A model generated the notes under the pieces. It searched no databases. It was not told where the DNA came from and saw only the letters and a list, made by a program, of their open reading frames with translations. DNA of 64,000 bases from Betaproteobacteria bacterium (GTDB lineage Bacteria > Pseudomonadota > Gammaproteobacteria > Burkholderiales > Usitatibacteraceae). Of this stretch, positions 55,127-64,000 are shown in pieces (position 1 is the first letter of the stretch; each line of letters opens with the position of its first letter). The DNA is taken from assembly GCA_025362135.1 (NCBI GenBank), contig JANYHZ010000281.1:6389-70388 (forward strand), written 5' to 3'. The translations under genes were made by a program, and so were the position numbers.

Positions 55127-57208
55127 CTATTGCGCTGGCTGCGAGCCGGCTTTCGCTGGCATCGCCTTGCGTTGTTTCACCTTGGCGGTTGCAGCCGCAG
55201 GGTTCGCTACCGGTGCGGCTGGCACATCCACTGGCGACGCCGTCGACGTGCGCACCTTCACCTTCAGGCGATAGCGGCGATCCAGCATTGCCAACAGGCC
55301 GCCAAGTGCCATGAAAATACAGCCAAACCAGATCCAGTTGATAAACGGTTTGACGTAAATACGCACCCCCCACGCCCCATCGGCTGCACCTTCGACCTGT
55401 TCGCCGAGTGCGACGTAGATATCGCGGGTAATGCCGGCGTTGATGGAGGCTTCGGTCATGACTTGGCCGGAGGCAAAATAGCGGCGTTTCTCTGGCGATA
55501 ACGTCGCCACCATTTTGCCGTCTTTGCTTACTTCAAAGATACCTTCTATGGCGGCGTAGTTTGGGCCGGGAACATCGCCGACTTTTACAAATTTGAATTG
55601 GTAGCCGCCCTCGGACACCGTTTGACCCGGTGCCATGCGCACATCGCGTTCGGTTTCGTAGCCCTTGACGAGGGTGACGCCGATGACGAACACGGCAATG
55701 CCGACGTGTGCCAGATGCATGCCGTAATAGCTGGAACGATTGGCGGCAATTCTGGCAAAGAAACTATCGCCTGGTGTTGCCTGATAACGATGCGCGAGTG
55801 CCGTCACACACGCGGCGATGATCCAGGTTGCCAGCAGTAATCCGCCGGCGACCATCGGCGTCCATTTACCCATCAGCAATGGGACTACGATCCCGGACGC
55901 CACCGCGATGCCGAATGCCCACTTCAATCGTGAGACGAGGTCCGGCAACGTGGCGTTACGCCAGCGTGAAATCGGCCCGACCGCCATCAGGAACAAGGCG
56001 GGTGCCATCAGCGGATAGAACACCGCTTCGAAATAAGGGGGGCCAACCGAAATCTTGCCGAGTTTCAATGCATCCAGAAACAAGGGATACAAGGTGCCCA
56101 ACACCACCGCCAACATGGCGACGACGAGCAGCACGTTGTTGGCGAGCAACAAGGATTCGCGGGATGTCGGCGAAAAATCGCGCGGCACTTTGCCCAAGCC
56201 CAATTGGGGGGCCCGCCACGCATACAACGCCAGCGAGCCGCCAATCACGACGACGAGGAAGGCGAGAATAAATACACCCCGTTTGGGATCCGTTGCGAAG
56301 GCATGAACCGACGTCAGCACACCGGAACGGACAAGGAATGTTCCGAGCAAGGAAAGCGAGAACGCGATGATCGCGAGCAACACCGTCCAGCTTTTGAAGA
56401 CACCGCGTTTTTCCGTGACCGCAAGCGAGTGAATAAGTGCGGTGCCCACCAGCCACGGCATGAATGACGCATTTTCCACCGGGTCCCAGAACCACCAGCC
56501 GCCCCAGCCTAATTCGTAATACGCCCATGCTGAACCGAGCGCAATCCCAATGGTGAGGAAACACCACGCAGCTGTGGTCCACGGACGAGACCAGCGCGCC
56601 CAGGTGGCGTCAAGTTTGCCGCCGATCAGCGCCGCCACCGCAAACGCGAAGGCCACCGAGAAGCCAACGTAGCCCATATAAAGCATCGGCGGGTGGTAGA
56701 TCATGCCGGGATCCTGCAACAGCGGATTCAGGTCGCGCCCTTCGATAGCCGCGGGCAGCAGGCGATCAAACGGGTTGGAGGTCAGCAGCATGAACAGCAG
56801 AAAGCCGACCATGATCATGCCCATCACGGCCAGCACGCGGGCGATCACCTCCTGCGGAAGATTGCGACTGAAAATCGATACCGCAAACGTCCAGCCCGCC
56901 AGCATCAGTACCCACAACAGCAGTGAGCCCTCGTGCGAACCCCAGGAGGCGGTAATGCGGTAGTACACCGGTAATTTGGTATTTGAATTTGCCGCGACGT
57001 TCTGCACTGAAAAATCACTGCTAATAAAAGAATAGAGCAGACAAGCAAAGGCAAAGACGACGAACACAAACTGGCCGTGCGCCAAGGGTCGGGCGAGCGA
57101 CAGCAGGCGTTGGTCGCCTCGGTACGCACCGACCAGCGGCAAAATGGCCATCGATAGCGCAAGGCAAAGCGCGAGAATGAGTGAAAACTGGCCTAGTTCT
57201 GGAACCAT
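55127..57208 (-). CDS. ccmF: Cytochrome c haem lyase subunit CcmF
   Basis: It is polytopic, has the WWD domain WGGWWFWDPVENAS, and conserved histidines. I trimmed the start to MVPELGQFSL. The C-terminus is an A/P/K-rich tail. Confidence 0.95.
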   Translation of the reverse strand: MVPELGQFSLILALCLALSMAILPLVGAYRGDQRLLSLARPLAHGQFVFVVFAFACLLYSFISSDFSVQNVAANSNTKLPVYYRITASWGSHEGSLLLWVLMLAGWTFAVSIFSRNLPQEVIARVLAVMGMIMVGFLLFMLLTSNPFDRLLPAAIEGRDLNPLLQDPGMIYHPPMLYMGYVGFSVAFAFAVAALIGGKLDATWARWSRPWTTAAWCFLTIGIALGSAWAYYELGWGGWWFWDPVENASFMPWLVGTALIHSLAVTEKRGVFKSWTVLLAIIAFSLSLLGTFLVRSGVLTSVHAFATDPKRGVFILAFLVVVIGGSLALYAWRAPQLGLGKVPRDFSPTSRESLLLANNVLLVVAMLAVVLGTLYPLFLDALKLGKISVGPPYFEAVFYPLMAPALFLMAVGPISRWRNATLPDLVSRLKWAFGIAVASGIVVPLLMGKWTPMVAGGLLLATWIIAACVTALAHRYQATPGDSFFARIAANRSSYYGMHLAHVGIAVFVIGVTLVKGYETERDVRMAPGQTVSEGGYQFKFVKVGDVPGPNYAAIEGIFEVSKDGKMVATLSPEKRRYFASGQVMTEASINAGITRDIYVALGEQVEGAADGAWGVRIYVKPFINWIWFGCIFMALGGLLAMLDRRYRLKVKVRTSTASPVDVPAAPVANPAAATAKVKQRKAMPAKAGSQPAQ

Positions 57209-57230
57209 CGTGATTGCCTCGGTGCTAGAT

Positions 57231-57719
57231 TCAATTGGGTTTCGGTGCTTGTGTAGGGACTGCTTTTTGTCCGGCAAACATACTGCCGTCGATCGATTTG
57301 CCGGCGTTCTTCAGCGCTTCTGCGGCTTCGGGAGGCATGTAATTCTCATCGTGCTTGGCCAACACCTCTGCCGCCCGAAACACGCCATCTTGTCCAATCT
57401 TGCCTTGCGCGACGACGCCTTTGCCTTCCTTGAACAAGTCGGGAAGAATACCGGTGTAGGTCACGGGAATGGTCTTGGCGGTATCGGTGACGTCAAATGT
57501 CACCGTAAGCCCATCGGGTTGGCGCTTCACGCTACCCGCGGTCACTAACCCGCCAATGCGGAAGGTACGGTCAACGGGCGCTTTGTTCTCGGCAACCTGG
57601 GAGGGCGTAAAGAAAAACACCAGATTTGAATTGAAGGCACGCAATACAAGGGTCACGGCAACGCCAATCACCAATAACCCAAGCGCAATCCACATGAAAC
57701 GACGGTGTCTTGCTTTCAT
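57231..57719 (-). CDS. ccmE: Cytochrome c maturation haem chaperone CcmE
   Basis: It has an N-terminal anchor, [17 protein letters not shown], and the haem-binding AKHDENYMP. Confidence 0.95.
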
Positions 57720-57895
57720 TGCGCAGGTCTTTTCGCTTTATCAGCCATCAGTTCTTCCCCAATTTCGGCTTGCGCGCGTTTTCCGCGCAAGCGCACCAGC
57801 GTAATTTCCAGCATGATCGCGACCACGAATGCACCGAATGAGCCCCACATATAGAACGCGCGCGCATCCATGGAAAAAAATGCTGCCCAGTTCAT
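57716..57895 (-). CDS. ccmD: Haem exporter protein CcmD
   Basis: This 59-aa single-TM protein ([33 protein letters not shown]) lies between ccmC and ccmE with ATGA overlaps at both ends. The track hides it inside a longer ORF (57716-58123). Confidence 0.75.
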
Positions 57896-58650
57896 GATCC
57901 TGCCACAATGTTGGTTGCAGATAACGTGTTTGCCACCCGGGTGCTGTGGCTTCGGCCGCGTTCCCGCTCGAGGATGATGGCACGAACACGCACCAGTGAA
58001 ATCGTGATCGCGTAAGTCCAGCAGGCTATTGCCATGATCAGCATCGCCCACAGCATTATCGCGGCCATTTTCGGCGAGGCGGTCACCGATACCGATGCGC
58101 CCTGATGCAGTGTATTCCACCATTTCACGGAAAAGTAAATGATAGGCACATTGACCGATCCAACGATGACCAGCAGCGCCCCCGCTTTGTCCGCACGCTT
58201 TTTATCTTCAATGGCGTTGATAAGCGCAAGGTAGCCGATGTACAGAAACAAAAGTATCAGCGTCGACGTCATGCGCGCGTCCCACGCCCAGTACGTGCCC
58301 CATGTCGGCTTTCCCCAAAGGGCACCAGTCCAAAGCGCGAGCGCGGTGAAGATTGCGCCGGTGGGTGCCAGCGCCTCCATCATCATTGCGGACAGGCGGG
58401 TATTGAAAGTAAGCGCCATCACGCCATACATCGCCATCGCCAGATAAATAACCATCGCCATCCAGGCCGCCGGCACATGGATGAAGATGATGCGGTAAAC
58501 CTCGCCTTGCTGAAAATCCTCGGGTGCGACGAACAAGCCCAGGTATAGACCGATAACAGCAAAAATGGCGGCCAGCGCGGCGAACCACGGTACTAGTTTG
58601 CCTGCGAGGGGATAGAACGCAGTGGGGGAGGAATATTTGAATAGGCTCAT
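57892..58650 (-). CDS. ccmC: Haem exporter protein CcmC
   Basis: It has the WWD motif WGKPTWGTYWAWDARMT and six TM helices. Confidence 0.95.
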   Translation of the reverse strand: MSLFKYSSPTAFYPLAGKLVPWFAALAAIFAVIGLYLGLFVAPEDFQQGEVYRIIFIHVPAAWMAMVIYLAMAMYGVMALTFNTRLSAMMMEALAPTGAIFTALALWTGALWGKPTWGTYWAWDARMTSTLILLFLYIGYLALINAIEDKKRADKAGALLVIVGSVNVPIIYFSVKWWNTLHQGASVSVTASPKMAAIMLWAMLIMAIACWTYAITISLVRVRAIILERERGRSHSTRVANTLSATNIVAGS

Positions 58651-58654
58651 TGCA

Positions 58655-59374
58655 TCAATCCAGAGAAATCTTCAACGCTGCCGCAACCGCAAACGGCACT
58701 GCCAGTCCAGCCAACAACACAATCGCACCAAGCAGCGACAGATTTGCTGAAAAATCGATAGAGACCATTGCTTGTTCGACGGCACCGGCACCAAAAATGA
58801 GCACCGGAATGTATAGGGGAAGTACCAGCAACGCCAACAATATGGATCCGCCGCGTACGCCTAGCGTCAACGCCGCGCCAATTGCGCCAATCATTGACAA
58901 TACTGGCGTTCCCAATATCAGACTTACACACAGTACAGCAAGTTCACCCGACGCAAGCCCAAACTGCAATCCGAGCAAGGGTGAGAGCACCGCCAAGGGT
59001 AAACCCGTCATCAGCCAATGCGCCACGATTTTGCCGGCGACGATTGTTGGCAATGGATACACCGACAATGCCAGCTGTTCCAGCGTGCCGTCAGCGTGAT
59101 CATTGGCGAACATTCTGGGCAGGGTCAGCAACACCGACAATAGCGCCGCCACCCACACAACGCCCGGGGCGATGCGTTTCAGCAATGCAGATTCAGGACC
59201 TATCGCGAGCGGAAACAAACTGACTACAACAACAAAAAATGCTAACGCCTGTATTGCTTCCCCTTTTGAGCGCGCCGCGAGTCTTGCGTCGCGCGCCATA
59301 GCCACAATAAAACCGCGCTCAGGTTGAAATACCGGCGAGTCAATCTGGGTGAGCGAGTTCAGAGTGGCGGTCAT
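58655..59374 (-). CDS. ccmB: Haem exporter permease CcmB
   Basis: It is a polytopic protein of about 220-240 aa between ccmA and ccmC, and has the FPLAIGPE-type motif. Confidence 0.9.
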   Translation of the reverse strand: MTATLNSLTQIDSPVFQPERGFIVAMARDARLAARSKGEAIQALAFFVVVVSLFPLAIGPESALLKRIAPGVVWVAALLSVLLTLPRMFANDHADGTLEQLALSVYPLPTIVAGKIVAHWLMTGLPLAVLSPLLGLQFGLASGELAVLCVSLILGTPVLSMIGAIGAALTLGVRGGSILLALLVLPLYIPVLIFGAGAVEQAMVSIDFSANLSLLGAIVLLAGLAVPFAVAAALKISLD

Positions 59375-60063
59375 CGCACCACTTCTATTCGTGAATCCAG
59401 ATTCATTTCTTTTGCTCGCGATGCGATATCCAAGGCGAGATGCGTTGCGATACAGGCAATTCCGCCGCGACCAAGATGGCGGCCGATGAGCTCGGTGAAC
59501 AGCAAGACGCCCTCACTATCTAACGCATTGGTAGGCTCATCGAGCAGCCAAAGAGGTTTGTGATGCGCATGGGAAAGCGCCAGCCACAATCGCGCCAGTC
59601 CGATGCGGCGCTTCTGCCCCTGCGAGAGTCGTCGCGCCAGCACGTGACGCCGATCAATCAAGCCGACCTTTTCAAGTGCCTCAAGTTGCGCGCTGGGCTC
59701 AAGGGAAATACCGTCGATCGACAACGCGTCGGCGAGGTTCTCGTGCGCGGTGAAATCGTCCTTGAGCGCGTTGTTATGGCCAAGATAAAGCGCAACGCTA
59801 CGCCACGTTGCCGACAGCGCCCTCAAAGGCTCGCCGTTCCACAAGACGACACCTGCATCTGGCAGCGTCAGGCCCGCAAGCATCCGTAGGAGACTCGTCT
59901 TGCCCGAGCCATTCGCGCCCCGCAAGATCAATGCCTGGCCTGACGCAATGCCGAACGATATATTGTCAATAATCGTGCGAGAGCCGCGTTCCAGCCGCAG
60001 TCCGCTGCCCCTCAAAGTATCTGCAGCGGTCTGGGTTGAATTCGAGACCGAGGATGCTGCCAT
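59371..60063 (-). CDS. ccmA: Cytochrome c biogenesis ABC ATPase CcmA
   Basis: It has Walker A (GANGSGKTS), the signature LSQGQKRR, and Walker B (LWLLDEP). Confidence 0.9.
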   Translation of the reverse strand: MAASSVSNSTQTAADTLRGSGLRLERGSRTIIDNISFGIASGQALILRGANGSGKTSLLRMLAGLTLPDAGVVLWNGEPLRALSATWRSVALYLGHNNALKDDFTAHENLADALSIDGISLEPSAQLEALEKVGLIDRRHVLARRLSQGQKRRIGLARLWLALSHAHHKPLWLLDEPTNALDSEGVLLFTELIGRHLGRGGIACIATHLALDIASRAKEMNLDSRIEVVR

Positions 60064-61454
60064 CAGGGTGCAACTTTGCCTATGGTCACGGTAACGCCCG
60101 ACGCACCCGGTTTCACCACATCGGACAGTCCCGACAAGTCACCGGGTTGAAGTTGCGCATTCCCGGATTTTGAAACTCGCGCTTCGATGACCACTTCGGC
60201 GAACGAGGACAGGTTGACGCCGGGGGCCATCGCCATCGCGTCGGTAAGTTCGAATGCAACTGGGAAAGCATTGGCTTTCGGTGCGGGCACCCGCATGACC
60301 GCGAGCGGCATACGCGGCCCCTCCTTGGCGCGAGCGAAGACGAATAACGTATCGCCAGAGGCTAACTTGCCCGCAACATCGGGCGCGATGACAACTTTCC
60401 CTGTTACCTTGACGCCTGGTTTTGAAGCACTATCCTTCCCCGCATTACTGCTGGCCACTTGCGGGCTTTGTGCCAAAGGCGATGCTGCGGGCGCAGGCGC
60501 GCCTGCAACGGCATCAAGTTTCGTCGTCTTTACTTCTGCGATGATGGTCTCGACTTCGCGATAATCAGCGGAATCCTTTGGCACCAGTGTTTTCAATTTT
60601 TCCCAATAGACTAAGGAAGCAGGGCGATTGCCCATCCGCAGCTCAGCGGTGCCGGCCAGCGCAAGCGCTTTCATGTGGTTCGGATCCAGTTTCAATGCCT
60701 GCTTGATCAGCGCATATGGCTTGCCCTCAAATCGTCCCTGCTGGGTCATCACGGCGGCGTCGGCATAATCCGCCAAGAGCTGTGGATCGTTGGGCGTGAG
60801 TGCAGCCGCCCGCTCAAATGCGGCGCTCGCTTCGGCGTAGCGTCCCAATGCATTCTGCGATCTTGCCAACAGGATCCAGCCGCGCGGATCGGTCGGGTTC
60901 TGCTGCATTTTTTGCGAAAGACTGTCCACCATGGCCAGAATTTGTTTATCTGACATCGGAGGCTCTTCGCCCGGCTTGGTATTTTCTGTGTGCCCGATTG
61001 GCATACCGGTAGAGGTGGGTGCAATCCCAGCCATTTCTATGGCACGCGGCGCGCCGAGCGTCCCGTAGAGCACCACCGCGCTTAATGGCATTGCAACCGC
61101 GAGCAGCGCGACCAGCCACCATGGGTGCTTGTTTACCGCCAGTGTGGGGGCCGAAACCATTTGTTGTTCGGGCACTTCGTCGACCAAGCGCGCGGACAGT
61201 TCGCCCAGCGCCGCGGTGTGCTCTGCTTCGCTGATCGCACCGCGCGCTAATTCTTCATCGAGTTCGCGCCGTTGCGACTGGAAGATCGTGACGTTACTGC
61301 GCGCACCGGAAACCGGTTCGGTCGGCGTTTTCTCACGCACCAGCGGTATCACCACAAATGCCAACGCGACAACCAACATCAACAACGCAACGATTGAAAA
61401 AATAAGCACGGTCTGGTCAGTCAGGTAAGGTATGGCGCGCGCGACCGCAGCCAA
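60063..61454 (-). CDS. ccmI: Cytochrome c-type biogenesis protein CcmI/CycH (TPR)
   Basis: It has two N-terminal TM helices flanking a charged loop (QRRELDEELARGAISEAE), a TPR-like middle, and a conserved C-terminal beta-domain (TLFVFARAKEGPRMPLAV). Its stop overlaps the ccmA start by 1 nt. Confidence 0.8.
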   Translation of the reverse strand: MAAVARAIPYLTDQTVLIFSIVALLMLVVALAFVVIPLVREKTPTEPVSGARSNVTIFQSQRRELDEELARGAISEAEHTAALGELSARLVDEVPEQQMVSAPTLAVNKHPWWLVALLAVAMPLSAVVLYGTLGAPRAIEMAGIAPTSTGMPIGHTENTKPGEEPPMSDKQILAMVDSLSQKMQQNPTDPRGWILLARSQNALGRYAEASAAFERAAALTPNDPQLLADYADAAVMTQQGRFEGKPYALIKQALKLDPNHMKALALAGTAELRMGNRPASLVYWEKLKTLVPKDSADYREVETIIAEVKTTKLDAVAGAPAPAASPLAQSPQVASSNAGKDSASKPGVKVTGKVVIAPDVAGKLASGDTLFVFARAKEGPRMPLAVMRVPAPKANAFPVAFELTDAMAMAPGVNLSSFAEVVIEARVSKSGNAQLQPGDLSGLSDVVKPGASGVTVTIGKVAP

Positions 61455-61775
61455 TATCGCACTAAATTATAGCCTGCGCCAGTGCGAGGATACGGATAGT
61501 GAAGCGGAACGACGTCCATGCCATCCGGCAGCGGTACTCGCGAAATTTTCGATTTGACTAAATACCAAAAACGGTTAGACTCAAGTCCGCGTTTGTCGAA
61601 GGGCTTTTGCTTGGGCAAACTAGAATAAGTGTTGCGAAGTTGTTTAGTACTCGTGGGCGGAAATGAAGGCCAGGCTTGATCAGCGTACTGCTGATGTTCC
61701 GGGCTTTTAAACCGCATGTCGACAGGCGTCAAGGGGTGGCCTGTTGAAAAATAGCCTTAGGGGGCCACAGTCATC

Positions 61776-62606
61776 ATGCGTCATCGCACTATTCTCGAAT
61801 ATCGTGATTACCGATATTTAAAGCTGGCGGTGCTTATCGTCGTAGCGGTTATTTTTGCCTACGGCTGGTACGCATATCCTCTCGGACATTACGGCGGCAC
61901 ACCGCTCGGCTACACGCTGGGCACGATCGGTGCACTGCTCATCTTCTGGCTTATGTGGCTGGGCGTACAGAAACGCCGCTATCGCACTACCGGCGACGTG
62001 AAGGGCTGGCTATCGGCCCACATCTATTTGGGTACCTCGTTGCTGGTCATCGCGACACTCCACGCCGCCTTTCAGGTCGGCTGGAACGTACACACCCTCG
62101 CTTATGTTTTGATGATAATCGTGATCGCGTCAGGTTTCTATGGCGTGTATACCTATCTGCGATTCCCCGGCCTGATGACCGAAAATCTTGCCGAGGATAC
62201 GCTCGAGAGTCTCACGCTAAAAATTGCCGACATTGATCGCGAGGCGCGTCGACTCGCGCTCGGCATGTCCGATGAGGTTAACCAGGCGGTGCTCGCATCG
62301 ATTCAGAAAACGCGCATTGGCGGAGGCGTCTACGCGCAATTGCGCGAGCAAGTCTCCAGCTGCCCAACGACATCTGCGGTCAAGCTTATCAAATCCCGTT
62401 CGGGGACGGTGAAAGGCGATGCGGCGCGCAAGCATCAGGACCTGTACGGCATGATGTTGCGCAAGGAGCGTCTGGTTAGGCGTGCACGGATAGATATTCG
62501 CTATAAGGCAATCATGGATATATGGCTTTTTTTCCATGTGCCATTATCCGTCGCGTTGCTCGCGGCACTGGTGGCGCATATCGTCGCCGTTTTCTTTTAT
62601 TGGTAG
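61776..62606 (+). CDS. 5-TM membrane protein with two H-x13-H pairs (putative dihaem b-type cytochrome)
   Basis: The predicted TM helices lie at about aa 16-35, 46-64, 78-99, 107-128 and 249-273. His82/His96 fall in TM3 and His254/His268 in TM5. I cannot name a family from memory. Confidence 0.6.
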   Translation: MRHRTILEYRDYRYLKLAVLIVVAVIFAYGWYAYPLGHYGGTPLGYTLGTIGALLIFWLMWLGVQKRRYRTTGDVKGWLSAHIYLGTSLLVIATLHAAFQVGWNVHTLAYVLMIIVIASGFYGVYTYLRFPGLMTENLAEDTLESLTLKIADIDREARRLALGMSDEVNQAVLASIQKTRIGGGVYAQLREQVSSCPTTSAVKLIKSRSGTVKGDAARKHQDLYGMMLRKERLVRRARIDIRYKAIMDIWLFFHVPLSVALLAALVAHIVAVFFYW

Positions 62607-62612
62607 GCATTG

Positions 62613-64000
62613 ATGAAAACCAAACTTGCGACCATTACGCGTAACAAGAAAGGCCAACCTGCGAGCACCGAACAGACGGTGGTCGCAGAGACACTCCGCA
62701 TTGGGCGCGGTGCAGATTGCAAGTTACACCTGTCCGATCCACGCATTGCGCTGTTCCATGCCGAAGTCATTTGTGGAGTAGACGGCGTATCGTACATCGA
62801 GGCACGCGGCGGTGTGGTGAGCGTGGATGGGAGCTTCGAGAGCGCGGCAACACTGAAAACCGGGCAGCGGATACTGGTCGGCCCGTTTGAATTAATTGTC
62901 CTGCCGCCGCAGACCGATGTGGACCTTGCACTGAGCGTGGAACTCATCGATCCGCTGAAAGACGACCTTGAAGAGGTAAAGAGTCACGTCAAAGCGGGCC
63001 TGAAATCGACGTGGTTATCCAAGCGAACCTTCAGTTGGCTGGCGGGCGCTGCGGTATTCCTTGTTTTTCTTGCATGGCCGGTACTCAACGCACTCGAGCG
63101 CGGGCATGGAAAGGATACAACCAAGCCCGTACTGGCTGCAGACGCGTCCTGGGATGTCGGGCCACTGGCAAGCGCGCACGCAAGCTTTGGCAGTAACTGC
63201 AGCTCGTGCCACCAGCAACCATTCGTGCACGTAACCAACGGCGCGTGTGAAGACTGCCACAAGAAAATCGGCTGGCATTTTGCCCTTGATACCAAGGAAG
63301 CCAAGGCGGTGCATACAGGGGTATTCGGCGACACCCGCTGCTCGTCCTGCCACCGCGATCACAAGGGCGCGAATGGTTTGGTGAGAACGGATTCGAGGCT
63401 CTGCACCGATTGTCACCAAAACTTGAAATCCCGGCACCCACAGACAGGCGTTGTCGATGTTGCGGAATTCACCAAAGATCACCCACCTTTCAAGGTGTCG
63501 ATGCTGGTGCCCGGAAAGACCGGTGCCGCTGCGCTCGTCCGTATTGCGCAGGACGACAAAACGCGTTACGTCGAAGCCTCGGGCCTGAAATTCCCGCACG
63601 ACGTTCACATGAGTGCGAAAGGCCTGCGCGGCCCTAATGGCAAGGCGCAAATGGAGTGTAAAAACTGCCATGTGCCGGATGAGACCAGTACTCGTTTCAA
63701 GCCGGTGACGATGGGTGAACATTGCCAGTCCTGCCATTCGCTCGAATTCGAACCGAAGGCGACGACGCGCCAGGTGCCGCACGGTAAGGTGGCCGATGTC
63801 ATGGCAACCTTGCAGGAATATTATGCGCAGGCAGCACTGACCGATGCAGCGATCGACGTGGTGCTCGAAGATGGCATCAAACGGCCTGGCCAGCGCGTTG
63901 GGGAGACCAAGCGCGAAGCAGCGCTTTCCTGGGCGAACAGCAAAGCGGAAAAAATTACCCAGGAACTATTTGAAATACGCGTTTGTTTTGAGTGCCATCA
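62613..64000 (+). CDS. FHA-like domain + TM + multihaem cytochrome c (3' end outside window; ORF absent from supplied track)
   Basis: My own translation from ATG 62613 gives 462 codons with no stop to the window edge. The N-terminus reads TLRIGRGADCKLHLSDPRIALFHAEVI...LKTGQRILVGPFELIV. A TM segment lies at 63027-63089. CXXCH motifs start at 63198, 63246, 63339, 63402, 63657, 63723 and 63984. Confidence 0.8.
   Translation, partial: MKTKLATITRNKKGQPASTEQTVVAETLRIGRGADCKLHLSDPRIALFHAEVICGVDGVSYIEARGGVVSVDGSFESAATLKTGQRILVGPFELIVLPPQTDVDLALSVELIDPLKDDLEEVKSHVKAGLKSTWLSKRTFSWLAGAAVFLVFLAWPVLNALERGHGKDTTKPVLAADASWDVGPLASAHASFGSNCSSCHQQPFVHVTNGACEDCHKKIGWHFALDTKEAKAVHTGVFGDTRCSSCHRDHKGANGLVRTDSRLCTDCHQNLKSRHPQTGVVDVAEFTKDHPPFKVSMLVPGKTGAAALVRIAQDDKTRYVEASGLKFPHDVHMSAKGLRGPNGKAQMECKNCHVPDETSTRFKPVTMGEHCQSCHSLEFEPKATTRQVPHGKVADVMATLQEYYAQAALTDAAIDVVLEDGIKRPGQRVGETKREAALSWANSKAEKITQELFEIRVCFECH

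What the first reader, a model, noticed from the sequence alone, without database searches (positions are those of the whole stretch)
61776..62606. Membrane protein with cytochrome-b-like bis-histidine spacing, placed 6 nt upstream of the multihaem gene
The 276-aa product has four N-terminal TM helices, a K/R-rich loop of about 120 aa, and a fifth TM helix. His82 and His96 in TM3, and His254 and His268 in TM5, are each 14 positions apart. The cytochrome b subunit of the bc1 complex has the same spacing (His83/97 and His182/196). By the positive-inside rule, TM3 and TM5 both run from cytoplasm to periplasm. That would place His82 with His254 at the inner face and His96 with His268 at the outer face, the geometry needed to ligate two stacked b haems. 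The stop at 62604-62606 lies only 6 nt before the next ATG, so the two genes look co-transcribed. Together they would form a quinol or cytoplasmic donor to dihaem b to multihaem c conduit. I do not recognise this pairing as a named complex.
Basis: partly seen in the sequence, partly recalled or inferred. Interest (0 to 1): 0.7.

Follow-up and report, generated by a model that had tools for sequence, protein, structure and literature searches.

The report
Predicted two-haem membrane cytochrome b subunit
This gene encodes a five-helix inner-membrane protein whose four invariant histidines very probably hold two b-type haems and pass electrons across the membrane to the ten-haem cytochrome encoded right after it; a 2017 genome survey already predicted this protein type, but nobody has tested it experimentally.

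Summary
ORF 61776-62606 (+) encodes a 276-aa protein with 5 TM helices. It has His82/His96 on TM3 and His254/His268 on TM5, and a stop codon 6 nt before the next ATG. In 108 homologues (down to 32% identity) the only invariant columns are these four His plus Gly49 and Gly120. The gene is always followed, with a median gap of 9 nt in 81 loci, by an FHA-TM-decahaem cytochrome c gene. That pair heads a conserved operon: a lipoprotein with HbpS-like domains, a probable outer-membrane barrel, a decahaem/LVIVD protein and a c554-like cytochrome. The di-haem-b reading therefore stands, though on computation alone. It is not new. He et al. 2017 (PMC5566968) described this class: 5 TM, SGxxG on TM4, and WX3HX13H on TM3 and TM5, next to multihaem genes. 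The window protein fits exactly. Matches to Ni_hydr_CYTB, DUF4405 and Ferric_reduct are weak (sub-threshold for the window protein), and no solved structure matches. New here: in 20 of 70 related loci with enough upstream sequence, a cytoplasmic FAD/NAD(P)H-cNMP-[4Fe-4S] protein gene sits directly upstream, which suggests a NOX-like split conduit. The window lineage has a ccm operon there instead, so its electron donor (quinol, or a flavoprotein encoded elsewhere) is unresolved.

The parts
61776..62606 (+). g0: 276-aa, 5-TM inner-membrane protein and predicted di-haem b subunit. Motifs: W78-x3-H82-x13-H96 (TM3), S119-G-x-x-G123 (TM4) and W250-x3-H254-x13-H268 (TM5), with a cytoplasmic helical domain at about residues 129-245.
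   Evidence: Ni_hydr_CYTB scores 25.0 bits against a cut-off of 30.1.
62019..62063 (+). TM3 histidine pair: the H82 codon (62019-62021) to the H96 codon (62061-62063).
   Evidence: Invariant in 108/108 sequences and 125/125.
62091..62093 (+). H106 codon: a fifth conserved histidine at the periplasmic start of TM4 (GWNxH motif). It lies 14 residues before the invariant G120.
   Evidence: 105/108 and 122/125.
62535..62579 (+). TM5 histidine pair: the H254 codon (62535-62537) to the H268 codon (62577-62579).
   Evidence: Invariant in 108/108 sequences.
62607..62612 (+). 6-nt spacer between the g0 stop codon and the g1 ATG.
   Evidence: The gap ranges from -1 to 34 nt (median 9) in 81 loci.
62613..64000 (+). 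g1, the 5' 462 codons, cut by the window end. It has a cytoplasmic FHA domain (about aa 13-97, nt 62649-62903), one TM helix (about aa 137-160, nt 63021-63092) and a periplasmic multihaem c domain. There are 7 CxxCH motifs in the window and 10 in the 600-aa orthologue.
61455..61775 (.). 321-nt divergent intergenic region between ccmI and g0. One weak sigma-70-like site lies at 61554-61581 (+).
   Evidence: The promoter count is within chance expectation.
55127..61454 (-). Divergently transcribed System I cytochrome c maturation genes: ccmI/cycH 60063-61454, ccmA 59371-60063, ccmB 58655-59374, ccmC 57892-58650 and ccmF 55127-57277. They are the likely maturation machinery for the multihaem products.
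   Evidence: ORFs; Pfam families on the orthologous L001 genes; ccmI lies divergently upstream in 28 of 70 loci.

Best explanation
g0 is the membrane-spanning di-haem b-type cytochrome subunit of a two-gene inner-membrane module. Its partner is g1, a bitopic decahaem cytochrome c with a cytoplasmic FHA domain. TM2-TM5 form a four-helix bundle. H82 and H254 ligate a haem near the cytoplasmic face, and H96 and H268 ligate a second haem near the periplasmic face. Invariant or near-invariant small residues in the same 14-residue register (G49/G63 on TM2, G120/G123 on TM4) leave room for the porphyrins. Electrons cross the membrane through the two stacked haems and pass to or from the periplasmic decahaem. 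The decahaem connects to the rest of the conserved operon: a lipoprotein with HbpS-like domains, a probable outer-membrane barrel, a decahaem protein with an LVIVD propeller, and a c554-like cytochrome. Together these would form a trans-envelope electron conduit. Three things are shown here: the conservation pattern, the topology and the operon linkage. Three are inferred: haem binding, the physical g0-g1 complex and the direction of electron flow. On the cytoplasmic side, many relatives encode a roughly 800-aa FAD/NAD(P)H-2x cNMP-[4Fe-4S] protein directly upstream of g0. That implies NAD(P)H -> FAD -> FeS -> haem b -> haem b -> haem c, a 'split NOX' arrangement. The window's lineage has no such gene within 64 kb. 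Here the donor or acceptor is either the quinone pool or a flavoprotein encoded elsewhere.
For: (1) H82, H96, H254 and H268 are invariant, and G49 and G120 are the only other invariant columns, in 108 homologues with a mean column identity of 27%. The same holds in 124 cluster representatives. (2) All four helices share a 14-residue register: G49/G63, H82/H96, H106/G120 and H254/H268. (3) The topology is N-in, with TM3 and TM5 both running from inside to outside. (4) There are weak but recurrent hits to the two-haem cytochrome families. Ni_hydr_CYTB matches 75 of 108 members (best E-value 3.8e-8), DUF4405 matches 17 and Ferric_reduct matches 6. The window protein scores 25 bits. (5) g0 and g1 are adjacent in 81 of 81 loci, and g1 has 10 CxxCH motifs in 73 of 75 complete copies. 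The g0-g1-g2-g3-g4 order holds across Beta-, Alpha- and Gammaproteobacteria and Vicinamibacteria. (6) The flavo-FeS gene lies directly upstream in 20 of 70 loci and in distant relatives. (7) A ccm operon is adjacent. (8) The protein fits exactly the class for which He et al. 2017 proposed two b haems.
Against: There is no biochemical evidence of haem. The window protein falls below Pfam's Ni_hydr_CYTB cut-off (25.0 against 30.1) and has no NCBIfam hit. The profile search of PDB sequences found nothing significant. Foldseek of the confident model found no significant PDB match; the best was E = 0.24, and cytochrome b561 (4o6y) reached only E = 0.87. hhalign against E. coli MsrQ and YodB was null. 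The flavoprotein gene is absent from the window, so the donor here is unknown. A terminator-like hairpin lies inside the last codons of g0, though the count is within chance.
Confidence: 0.7

Rival explanations
1. g0 is a quinol dehydrogenase or quinone reductase, functionally like Geobacter CbcL/CbcBA, CymA or the cytochrome b subunits of hydrogenase and formate dehydrogenase. The b haems would link the membrane quinone pool to the decahaem, with no cytoplasmic partner. This is the function He et al. 2017 proposed for the class. It differs from the best explanation only in the donor, and for the window's lineage it may well be correct.
For: There is no flavo-FeS gene in the 64-kb window, or within +/-10 kb in the Burkholderiales-type loci. 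The strongest Pfam signal is to Ni_hydr_CYTB, a family of quinone-reactive cytochromes b. He et al. proposed this. A conserved polar motif, N104-x-H106, sits at the periplasmic membrane surface and could form part of a quinone site.
Against: The roughly 117-residue cytoplasmic helical domain is retained in the lineages that lack the flavoprotein gene. That is hard to explain without a cytoplasmic partner. The ancestral-looking operon has the flavo-FeS gene abutting g0. No quinone-site motif has been identified.
Confidence: 0.35
2. g0 is a non-redox scaffold or anchor. It would stabilise the FHA-decahaem in the membrane and dock cytoplasmic partners, as the Ferrigenium preprint suggested. The conserved histidines would serve a structural or metal-binding role rather than binding haem.
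For: The preprint found no redox motif in InterPro for the orthologous 5-TM protein. There is no significant match to any solved haem protein. The cytoplasmic domain looks like a docking module.
Against: Four invariant intramembrane histidines, in two x13 pairs on parallel helices, with matching glycines on the neighbouring helices, are the classic bis-His di-haem signature. Recurrent sub-threshold hits all fall on two-haem cytochrome families. Every gene neighbour is an electron-transfer protein.
Confidence: 0.1
3. g0 and the FHA domain form mainly a signalling device. The haem or haems would sense redox state, and the cytoplasmic domain together with FHA and phospho-threonine would relay it, rather than carrying bulk electron flow.
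For: An FHA domain sits on g1. A Ser/Thr kinase and an extra FHA protein are adjacent in L090. The flavoprotein carries cNMP-binding domains. Metallophosphoesterase genes flank the pair in Sphingobium.
Against: Ten c haems on g1, at least 15 more haem motifs downstream and a barrel protein point to a conduit, not a sensor. No output domain (histidine kinase, GGDEF or DNA-binding) is part of the conserved core.
Confidence: 0.1

Closest known systems
'Conserved inner membrane protein' (IMP) of the PCC3/PCC4 porin-cytochrome clusters and of the MHC-IMP clusters in Supplementary Table 6 (He et al. 2017, Front Microbiol 8:1584, PMC5566968)
   Same: It has 5 TM helices and is about 300 aa long. SGxxG lies on TM4 and WX3HX13H on TM3 and on TM5. 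It sits next to a multihaem cytochrome c gene, often with a porin gene and an 'other redox protein' of about 800 aa or a PF13247 Fe-S gene. The window protein has every motif.
   Different: PCC3 has periplasmic and extracellular multihaem cytochromes with about 21-35 haems. Here both are decahaems, and the operon adds a lipoprotein with HbpS-like domains and an LVIVD propeller. No PCC3 or PCC4 reference sequences were available, so which sub-family this protein belongs to is untested. The class itself has never been characterised biochemically.
Ferrigenium straubiae 'NHC' cluster (bioRxiv 10.64898/2026.01.22.701106, section 6.3.2)
   Same: It has a membrane-anchored multihaem c with a cytoplasmic FHA domain and one TM helix. 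A 5-TM protein and a [4Fe-4S] protein are encoded beside it. This matches the triad seen in relatives of the window gene.
   Different: It has nine haems rather than ten, and a different gene order (NHC, then the TM protein, then the FeS protein). The authors did not recognise the 5-TM protein as redox-active. The window lacks the FeS gene. No sequence comparison was possible.
Ferric-reductase-domain proteins (NOX, FRE, STEAP, MsrQ; Pfam PF01794)
   Same: Two His pairs sit on TM3 and TM5, both running from inside to outside, and carry two stacked b haems. The electron source is cytoplasmic NAD(P)H via flavin; in NOX and FRE this is a fused domain. This rests on established knowledge of the family and on He et al..
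   Different: Those proteins have six TM helices and a short TM4-TM5 loop. Only 6 of 108 members give even a weak Ferric_reduct hit, and hhalign against E. coli MsrQ gives a probability of 0.4%. Here the flavin module is a separate protein with added Fe-S clusters, and the acceptor is a multihaem c.
Prokaryotic cytochrome b561 / Ni_hydr_CYTB family (FdnI, HyaC, CybB; Pfam PF01292) and Geobacter Cbc-type b-plus-multihaem-c quinol oxidoreductases (CbcL, CbcBA)
   Same: This is the best sequence signal: 75 of 108 members hit, and TM5 aligns to the last, two-His helix of the model. A di-haem b paired with a multihaem c is functionally the Cbc design (own knowledge).
   Different: The window protein scores below the gathering threshold (25.0 against 30.1). 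That family has 4 TM helices, with the haem ligands spread over TM1, TM2 and TM4 (own knowledge of FdnI) rather than 2+2 on two helices. hhalign against E. coli YodB was null.
Cytochrome b of the bc1 complex
   Same: It has the same 14-residue His spacing on two parallel helices (H83/H97 and H182/H196). Conserved glycines occupy the same register on the two flanking helices (own knowledge). The pattern here is G49/G63, H82/H96, H106/G120 and H254/H268.
   Different: There is no detectable sequence or fold similarity. Cytochrome b has eight helices, sits in a Rieske/c1 context and runs a Q cycle. The resemblance is an analogy of design.

Membership tests
He et al. 2017 IMP class (PCC3 / PCC4 / MHC-associated) | Five predicted transmembrane helices, about 200-310 aa | tested here: met
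   276 aa. Helices at 13-31, 43-68, 75-97, 105-138 and 215-275.
He et al. 2017 IMP class (PCC3 / PCC4 / MHC-associated) | WX3HX13H on TM3 and again on TM5 | tested here: met
   W78-x3-H82-x13-H96 and W250-x3-H254-x13-H268. All four His are 108/108; the Trp residues are 103/108 and 107/108.
He et al. 2017 IMP class (PCC3 / PCC4 / MHC-associated) | SGXXG on TM4 | tested here: met
   S119-G120-F-Y-G123. S/T is 106/108, G120 is 108/108 and G123 is 106/108.
He et al. 2017 IMP class (PCC3 / PCC4 / MHC-associated) | Encoded next to a multihaem cytochrome c gene | tested here: met
   The decahaem gene starts 6 nt downstream and is adjacent in 81 of 81 loci.
PCC3 cluster | Porin, plus an extracellular and a periplasmic multihaem cytochrome with very many haems (medians 34 and 21), plus the IMP | tested here: not met
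   The orthologous operon has two decahaems and a roughly 5-haem cytochrome, plus a lipoprotein with HbpS-like domains.
PCC4 cluster | Porin, plus three periplasmic multihaem cytochromes (4, 5 and 10 haems), plus the IMP; subgroup II has a PF13247 Fe-S gene upstream of the IMP | tested here: inconclusive
   A 10-haem and a roughly 5-haem cytochrome and a barrel-like protein are present. A PF13247-containing gene lies upstream in relatives. No tetrahaem was seen, the window lacks the Fe-S gene, and no PCC4 reference sequences were available.
Pfam PF01292 Ni_hydr_CYTB | HMM score at or above the gathering threshold (30.1 bits) | tested here: not met
   25.0 bits, E = 1.9e-5. 75 of 108 relatives hit at E <= 0.1, and some are flagged PF01292 in precomputed data.
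Pfam PF01292 Ni_hydr_CYTB | Four-TM bundle with haem ligands on TM1, TM2 and TM4 (FdnI type) | tested here: not met
   Here there are 5 TM helices with 2+2 ligands on TM3 and TM5. The family's ligand pattern is from my own knowledge.
Pfam PF01794 ferric reductase domain | HMM match, or profile similarity to a member | tested here: not met
   6 of 108 members hit weakly (best E = 0.0014). hhalign against E. coli MsrQ gives a probability of 0.4%.
Pfam PF01794 ferric reductase domain | Six TM helices, with bis-His pairs on TM3 and TM5 | tested here: inconclusive
   The His placement is met. The sixth helix is absent, and a 117-residue domain is inserted between TM4 and TM5.
Any b-type cytochrome | Non-covalent haem b bound by the conserved histidines | not testable with these tools
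   This needs spectroscopy of purified protein.
Solved-structure relatives | Significant sequence or fold match in the PDB | tested here: not met
   The best hmmsearch hit has E = 0.81. The best Foldseek hit has E = 0.24, and TM-scores are at most 0.45.

The most novel reading that the evidence does not exclude
The complete form of this system may be a quinone-independent, NOX-like 'split' trans-envelope conduit. A cytoplasmic FAD/NAD(P)H-[4Fe-4S] protein with two cNMP-binding domains would feed the di-haem b subunit. The b subunit would hand electrons to an FHA-anchored decahaem, and from there they would reach an outer-membrane barrel and propeller-decahaem module. The whole would be gated by Ser/Thr phosphorylation read by the FHA domain. 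The system is widespread in soil Burkholderiales (Usitatibacteraceae, Casimicrobiaceae), Vicinamibacteria and marine Alphaproteobacteria (including SAR116), and has no solved or characterised homologue. The window's lineage would be a derived version that has swapped or relocated the cytoplasmic donor.
Probability: 0.3. Interest if true: 0.8.

Novelty: new member of a known kind. Interest (0 to 1): 0.5.

Why it matters
If the prediction holds, this is the inner-membrane entry or exit point of a very widespread, wholly uncharacterised electron conduit across the cell envelope. The family has at least 586 species-level genomes and 2,407 clusters at 50% identity. It occurs in groups not known for extracellular electron transfer, such as soil Usitatibacteraceae and Vicinamibacteria and marine SAR116 and Oceanibacterium. 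The family has no solved structure, and the confident model has no significant fold neighbour in the PDB. The flavo-FeS partner seen in relatives offers a testable alternative to the usual quinol-dependent models (CymA, CbcL, ImcH) for how electrons leave or enter the cytoplasmic membrane. It also supplies the redox role that a 2026 study of Ferrigenium could not assign to the orthologous 5-TM protein. Three cultured hosts make the genetics feasible: Oceanibacterium hippocampi CECT 7691, Sphingobium herbicidovorans MH and Comamonadaceae G21597-S1.

Tried and rejected
The following attempts gave nothing useful.

- **First AF2 run.** With a shallow 20-sequence alignment the TM region was low-confidence (pLDDT 65.7). 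It was replaced by the 108-sequence run.
- **Foldseek of the full model against the PDB.** Only generic helical bundles came up (TorS sensor, BAR domains). The cytoplasmic domain probably dominates the search, and I could not trim the model.
- **Profile search of PDB sequences.** Nothing significant.
- **hhalign of the family profile against E. coli MsrQ and YodB.** Null. Single-sequence templates are weak, so this does not exclude remote homology.
- **NCBIfam on g0.** No hit.
- **The search for homologous proteins with the distant member P0239.** It returned only itself and one other protein, so no named PCC3 or PCC4 hosts were recovered.
- **Exact look-up of the window protein's own contig.** Not on record. 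The 91%-identical L001 locus was used as a proxy for the part of the operon beyond the window end.
- **He et al. supplements.** A search for domain names and taxa that would tie this operon to PCC4 found nothing. Supplements 2 and 8 were irrelevant.
- **Model coordinates.** They were not exposed to scripts, so His-His distances could not be measured.

Considered and rejected:

- **A bc1-type cytochrome b or a b6-like protein.** No HMM hit, the wrong helix count and the wrong context.
- **An adiponectin-receptor / HlyIII-like zinc hydrolase.** It was the top PDB sequence hit at E = 0.81, which is chance level, and the His pattern differs.
- **A chance ORF.** The ORF has more than 4,500 homologues and conserved synteny.
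Full report
**1.

The window has an ATG-initiated ORF at 61776-62606 (+) encoding 276 aa. Its histidines are at residues 3, 38, 82, 96, 106, 220, 254 and 268. His82/His96 and His254/His268 are therefore each 14 positions apart.

Hydropathy and a confident AlphaFold2 model (pLDDT 93.9, pTM 0.87) agree on the helices:
- four N-terminal membrane helices: 13-31, 43-68, 75-97 and 105-138;
- a cytoplasmic insert at about residues 129-245;
- one long helix, 215-275, whose last 30 residues form the fifth TM segment.

The insert is moderately basic, with 22 K/R against 14 D/E in 117 residues. It is predicted to be a folded four-helix domain rather than a loop.

The positive-inside rule gives a clear topology. 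The N-terminus and the 65-77 loop (5 K/R) are cytoplasmic. Loops 32-42 and 98-104 have no K/R and are periplasmic. TM3 and TM5 therefore both run from inside to outside. That places H82 with H254 near the inner face and H96 with H268 near the outer face.

The TAG stop at 62604-62606 is followed 6 nt later by the ATG at 62613. The next ORF has an FHA-like N-terminus, one TM helix and CxxCH motifs. Seven of these motifs lie before the window ends.

**2. Conservation is the main evidence**

The family is large:
- more than 4,500 homologues in the word-indexed search;
- 2,407 clusters at 50% identity with E <= 1e-3;
- at least 586 species-representative genomes.

The hosts include Usitatibacteraceae, Casimicrobiaceae and other Burkholderiales. 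They also include Alphaproteobacteria (the cultured Oceanibacterium hippocampi, SAR116 and Kiloniellaceae), Gammaproteobacteria and Vicinamibacteria.

In an alignment of 108 members reaching 32% identity, the mean column identity is 27%. The only invariant columns are G49, H82, H96, G120, H254 and H268. An independent MAFFT alignment of 124 representatives gives the same result.

Near-invariant positions complete a striking 14-residue register on all four helices TM2-TM5: G49/G63, H82/H96, H106/G120 and H254/H268. From my own knowledge, cytochrome b of bc1 has the same design. Its His pairs sit on helices B and D, and glycine pairs on helices A and C let the porphyrins pack. H38 and H220 are not conserved. 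H106, in a GWNxH motif at the periplasmic start of TM4, is conserved in 105 of 108 sequences.

**3. Relation to known cytochrome b families is real but remote**

- The window protein scores 25.0 bits on Pfam Ni_hydr_CYTB, below the 30.1-bit cut-off. The match aligns TM5 to the model's last helix.
- Across the 108 members, 75 hit Ni_hydr_CYTB (best E = 3.8e-8), 17 hit DUF4405 and 6 hit Ferric_reduct. By my recollection these all belong to Pfam's two-haem cytochrome clan.
- NCBIfam has no model for this protein.
- Neither a profile search of PDB sequences nor Foldseek of the confident model gives a significant hit.
- hhalign against E. coli MsrQ and YodB was null.

The protein therefore works like a bis-His di-haem bundle but cannot be filed as a member of PF01292, PF01794 or bc1 cytochrome b.

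**4. The kind is already in the literature**

He et al. 2017 (PMC5566968) described a 'conserved inner membrane protein' in their PCC3 and PCC4 porin-cytochrome clusters. It has five TM helices, SGXXG on TM4 and WX3HX13H on TM3 and TM5. They proposed that it carries two b haems and talks to the quinone pool.

Their Supplementary Table 6 lists further pairs of a multihaem cytochrome and an IMP. One is a Gallionella set: a 9-haem cytochrome of 544-556 aa, an IMP of 308-310 aa and an 'other redox protein' of about 800 aa.

The window protein has every motif: W78-x3-H82-x13-H96, S119-G-F-Y-G123 and W250-x3-H254-x13-H268.

A 2026 preprint on Ferrigenium straubiae describes the same gene set as an FHA-bearing nonahaem ('NHC') with a 5-TM protein and a [4Fe-4S] protein. 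It remarks that FHA plus multihaem was unreported, and it fails to see a redox role for the 5-TM protein. No paper in the searchable library reports biochemistry on any member.

**5. Genomic context**

The window ends inside the second gene. I therefore used a 91%-identical orthologous locus, L001. The operon there is:

| Gene | Product |
|---|---|
| g0 | 276 aa, the protein studied here |
| g1 | 600 aa: FHA, TM helix, 10 CxxCH |
| g2 | 635-aa lipoprotein with HbpS/GlcG-like domains |
| g3 | 609 aa, signal peptide, no Pfam hit, ends ...LLLTY; barrel-like |
| g4 | 1,283 aa: 10 CxxCH plus LVIVD repeats |
| g5 | c554-like cytochrome, 4 CxxCH plus 1 Cx3-4CH in complete copies |

tblastn shows this gene order in nearly every one of 80 species loci. 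g0 and g1 are adjacent in 81 of 81 loci, with gaps of -1 to 34 nt (median 9). g1 has ten CxxCH motifs in 73 of 75 complete copies. The FHA domain passes Pfam's threshold in Alphaproteobacterial and Vicinamibacterial orthologues. g4 is the best-conserved gene of the operon, at 61-88% identity in most loci. None of g2-g4 has an informative solved relative.

**6. A cytoplasmic partner in relatives**

A 32%-identical family member (P0239, in loci L084-L086) is preceded directly by an 814-aa protein. That protein has a Pyr_redox_2/3 FAD/NAD(P)H domain, two cNMP-binding domains and 4Fe-4S dicluster domains, including PF13247.

The same gene abuts g0 in 20 of 70 loci that have at least 3 kb of upstream sequence. 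These are essentially the Alpha- and Gammaproteobacterial ones. It also does so on a Sphingobium megaplasmid and in two more distant metagenomic relatives. In one of these relatives, L090, a Ser/Thr kinase and an extra FHA protein lie just upstream.

This arrangement argues for a chain NAD(P)H -> FAD -> FeS -> two b haems -> decahaem c. That is a NOX- or FRE-like logic split over three polypeptides.

The window has no such gene in its 64 kb. In its place, a System I ccm operon diverges from g0. That arrangement is shared by 28 of the 70 loci. For this lineage the cytoplasmic-side partner is therefore open: it could be quinol, or a flavoprotein encoded elsewhere. The cytoplasmic helical domain is retained, which mildly favours a protein partner.

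**7. Verdict**

The best explanation is a di-haem b transmembrane electron-transfer subunit paired with an FHA-anchored decahaem c, heading a trans-envelope conduit (confidence 0.7). Haem binding, complex formation and the direction of electron flow are inferred, not shown.

This is a new member of a class first predicted in 2017, not a new kind of protein. Three points carry the remaining interest:
- the class is entirely uncharacterised and has no structural relatives;
- it is very widespread, in organisms not known for extracellular electron transfer;
- the flavo-FeS, FHA and kinase context suggests a quinone-independent, phospho-regulated conduit, a hypothesis that is cheap to test.

**8. 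Weak points**

- No coordinates were available to measure the His geometry.
- No multimer model was possible.
- No reference PCC3 or PCC4 sequences were available, so the sub-family is unassigned.
- A terminator-like hairpin lies within the last codons of g0. The count is within chance expectation, and it probably reflects the conserved VFFYW codons.

Noticed in passing
window 55127-61454 (-): A System I cytochrome c maturation operon (ccmI/cycH, ccmA, ccmB, ccmC, ccmF and others) is transcribed divergently from g0 across a 321-nt intergenic region. The same ccmI-divergent arrangement recurs in 28 of 70 related loci, which suggests a dedicated or co-regulated maturation system for the multihaem operon.
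   Followed up: partly
window 62649-62903 (+), aa 13-97 of the ORF starting at 62613: The decahaem cytochrome carries a cytoplasmic FHA (phospho-threonine-binding) domain ahead of its single TM helix. In the window copy it is near Pfam's threshold (20.1 against 20.7 bits). It is above the threshold in orthologues (32.9 and 27.9 bits). A 2026 preprint calls this combination previously unreported.
   Followed up: partly
L090 4004-8825: In a distant relative, a Ser/Thr protein kinase and a separate FHA protein sit directly upstream of the flavo-FeS gene, g0 and a cytochrome with two FHA domains. This points to phospho-regulation of the module.
   Followed up: no
L001 16372-20223 and orthologues: The 1,283-aa decahaem plus LVIVD-propeller protein is the most conserved gene of the operon (61-88% identity in most loci, where the FHA-decahaem is only 31-84%). 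That level of conservation is more typical of an enzyme than of a passive electron wire. It has a short local match to Geobacter ExtM (68 bits against a cut-off of 800) and no PDB relative.
   Followed up: partly
L083 (Sphingobium herbicidovorans plasmid pMSHV) 9275-24639: On this conjugative 959-kb replicon, the flavoprotein-g0-g1 triad and the g2-g3-g4 genes lie on opposite strands. They are separated by a metallophosphoesterase gene and two small genes. The inner-membrane triad is therefore the tighter unit.
   Followed up: no
window 62569-62589 (+): A terminator-like hairpin followed by a T-run lies inside the last codons of g0, 23 nt before the g1 start. The count of such sites in the region is within chance (3 found against 1.4 +/- 1.1 expected).
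   Followed up: no
L044 7392-9717: The flavo-FeS gene upstream of g0 in this gammaproteobacterial MAG matches in several pieces in different frames. It is either a pseudogene or an assembly error.
   Followed up: no
window 62597-63802 (-): Several long ORFs on the opposite strand overlap g1 (for example 63015-63782, 255 aa). They look like GC-rich shadow ORFs rather than genes.
   Followed up: no
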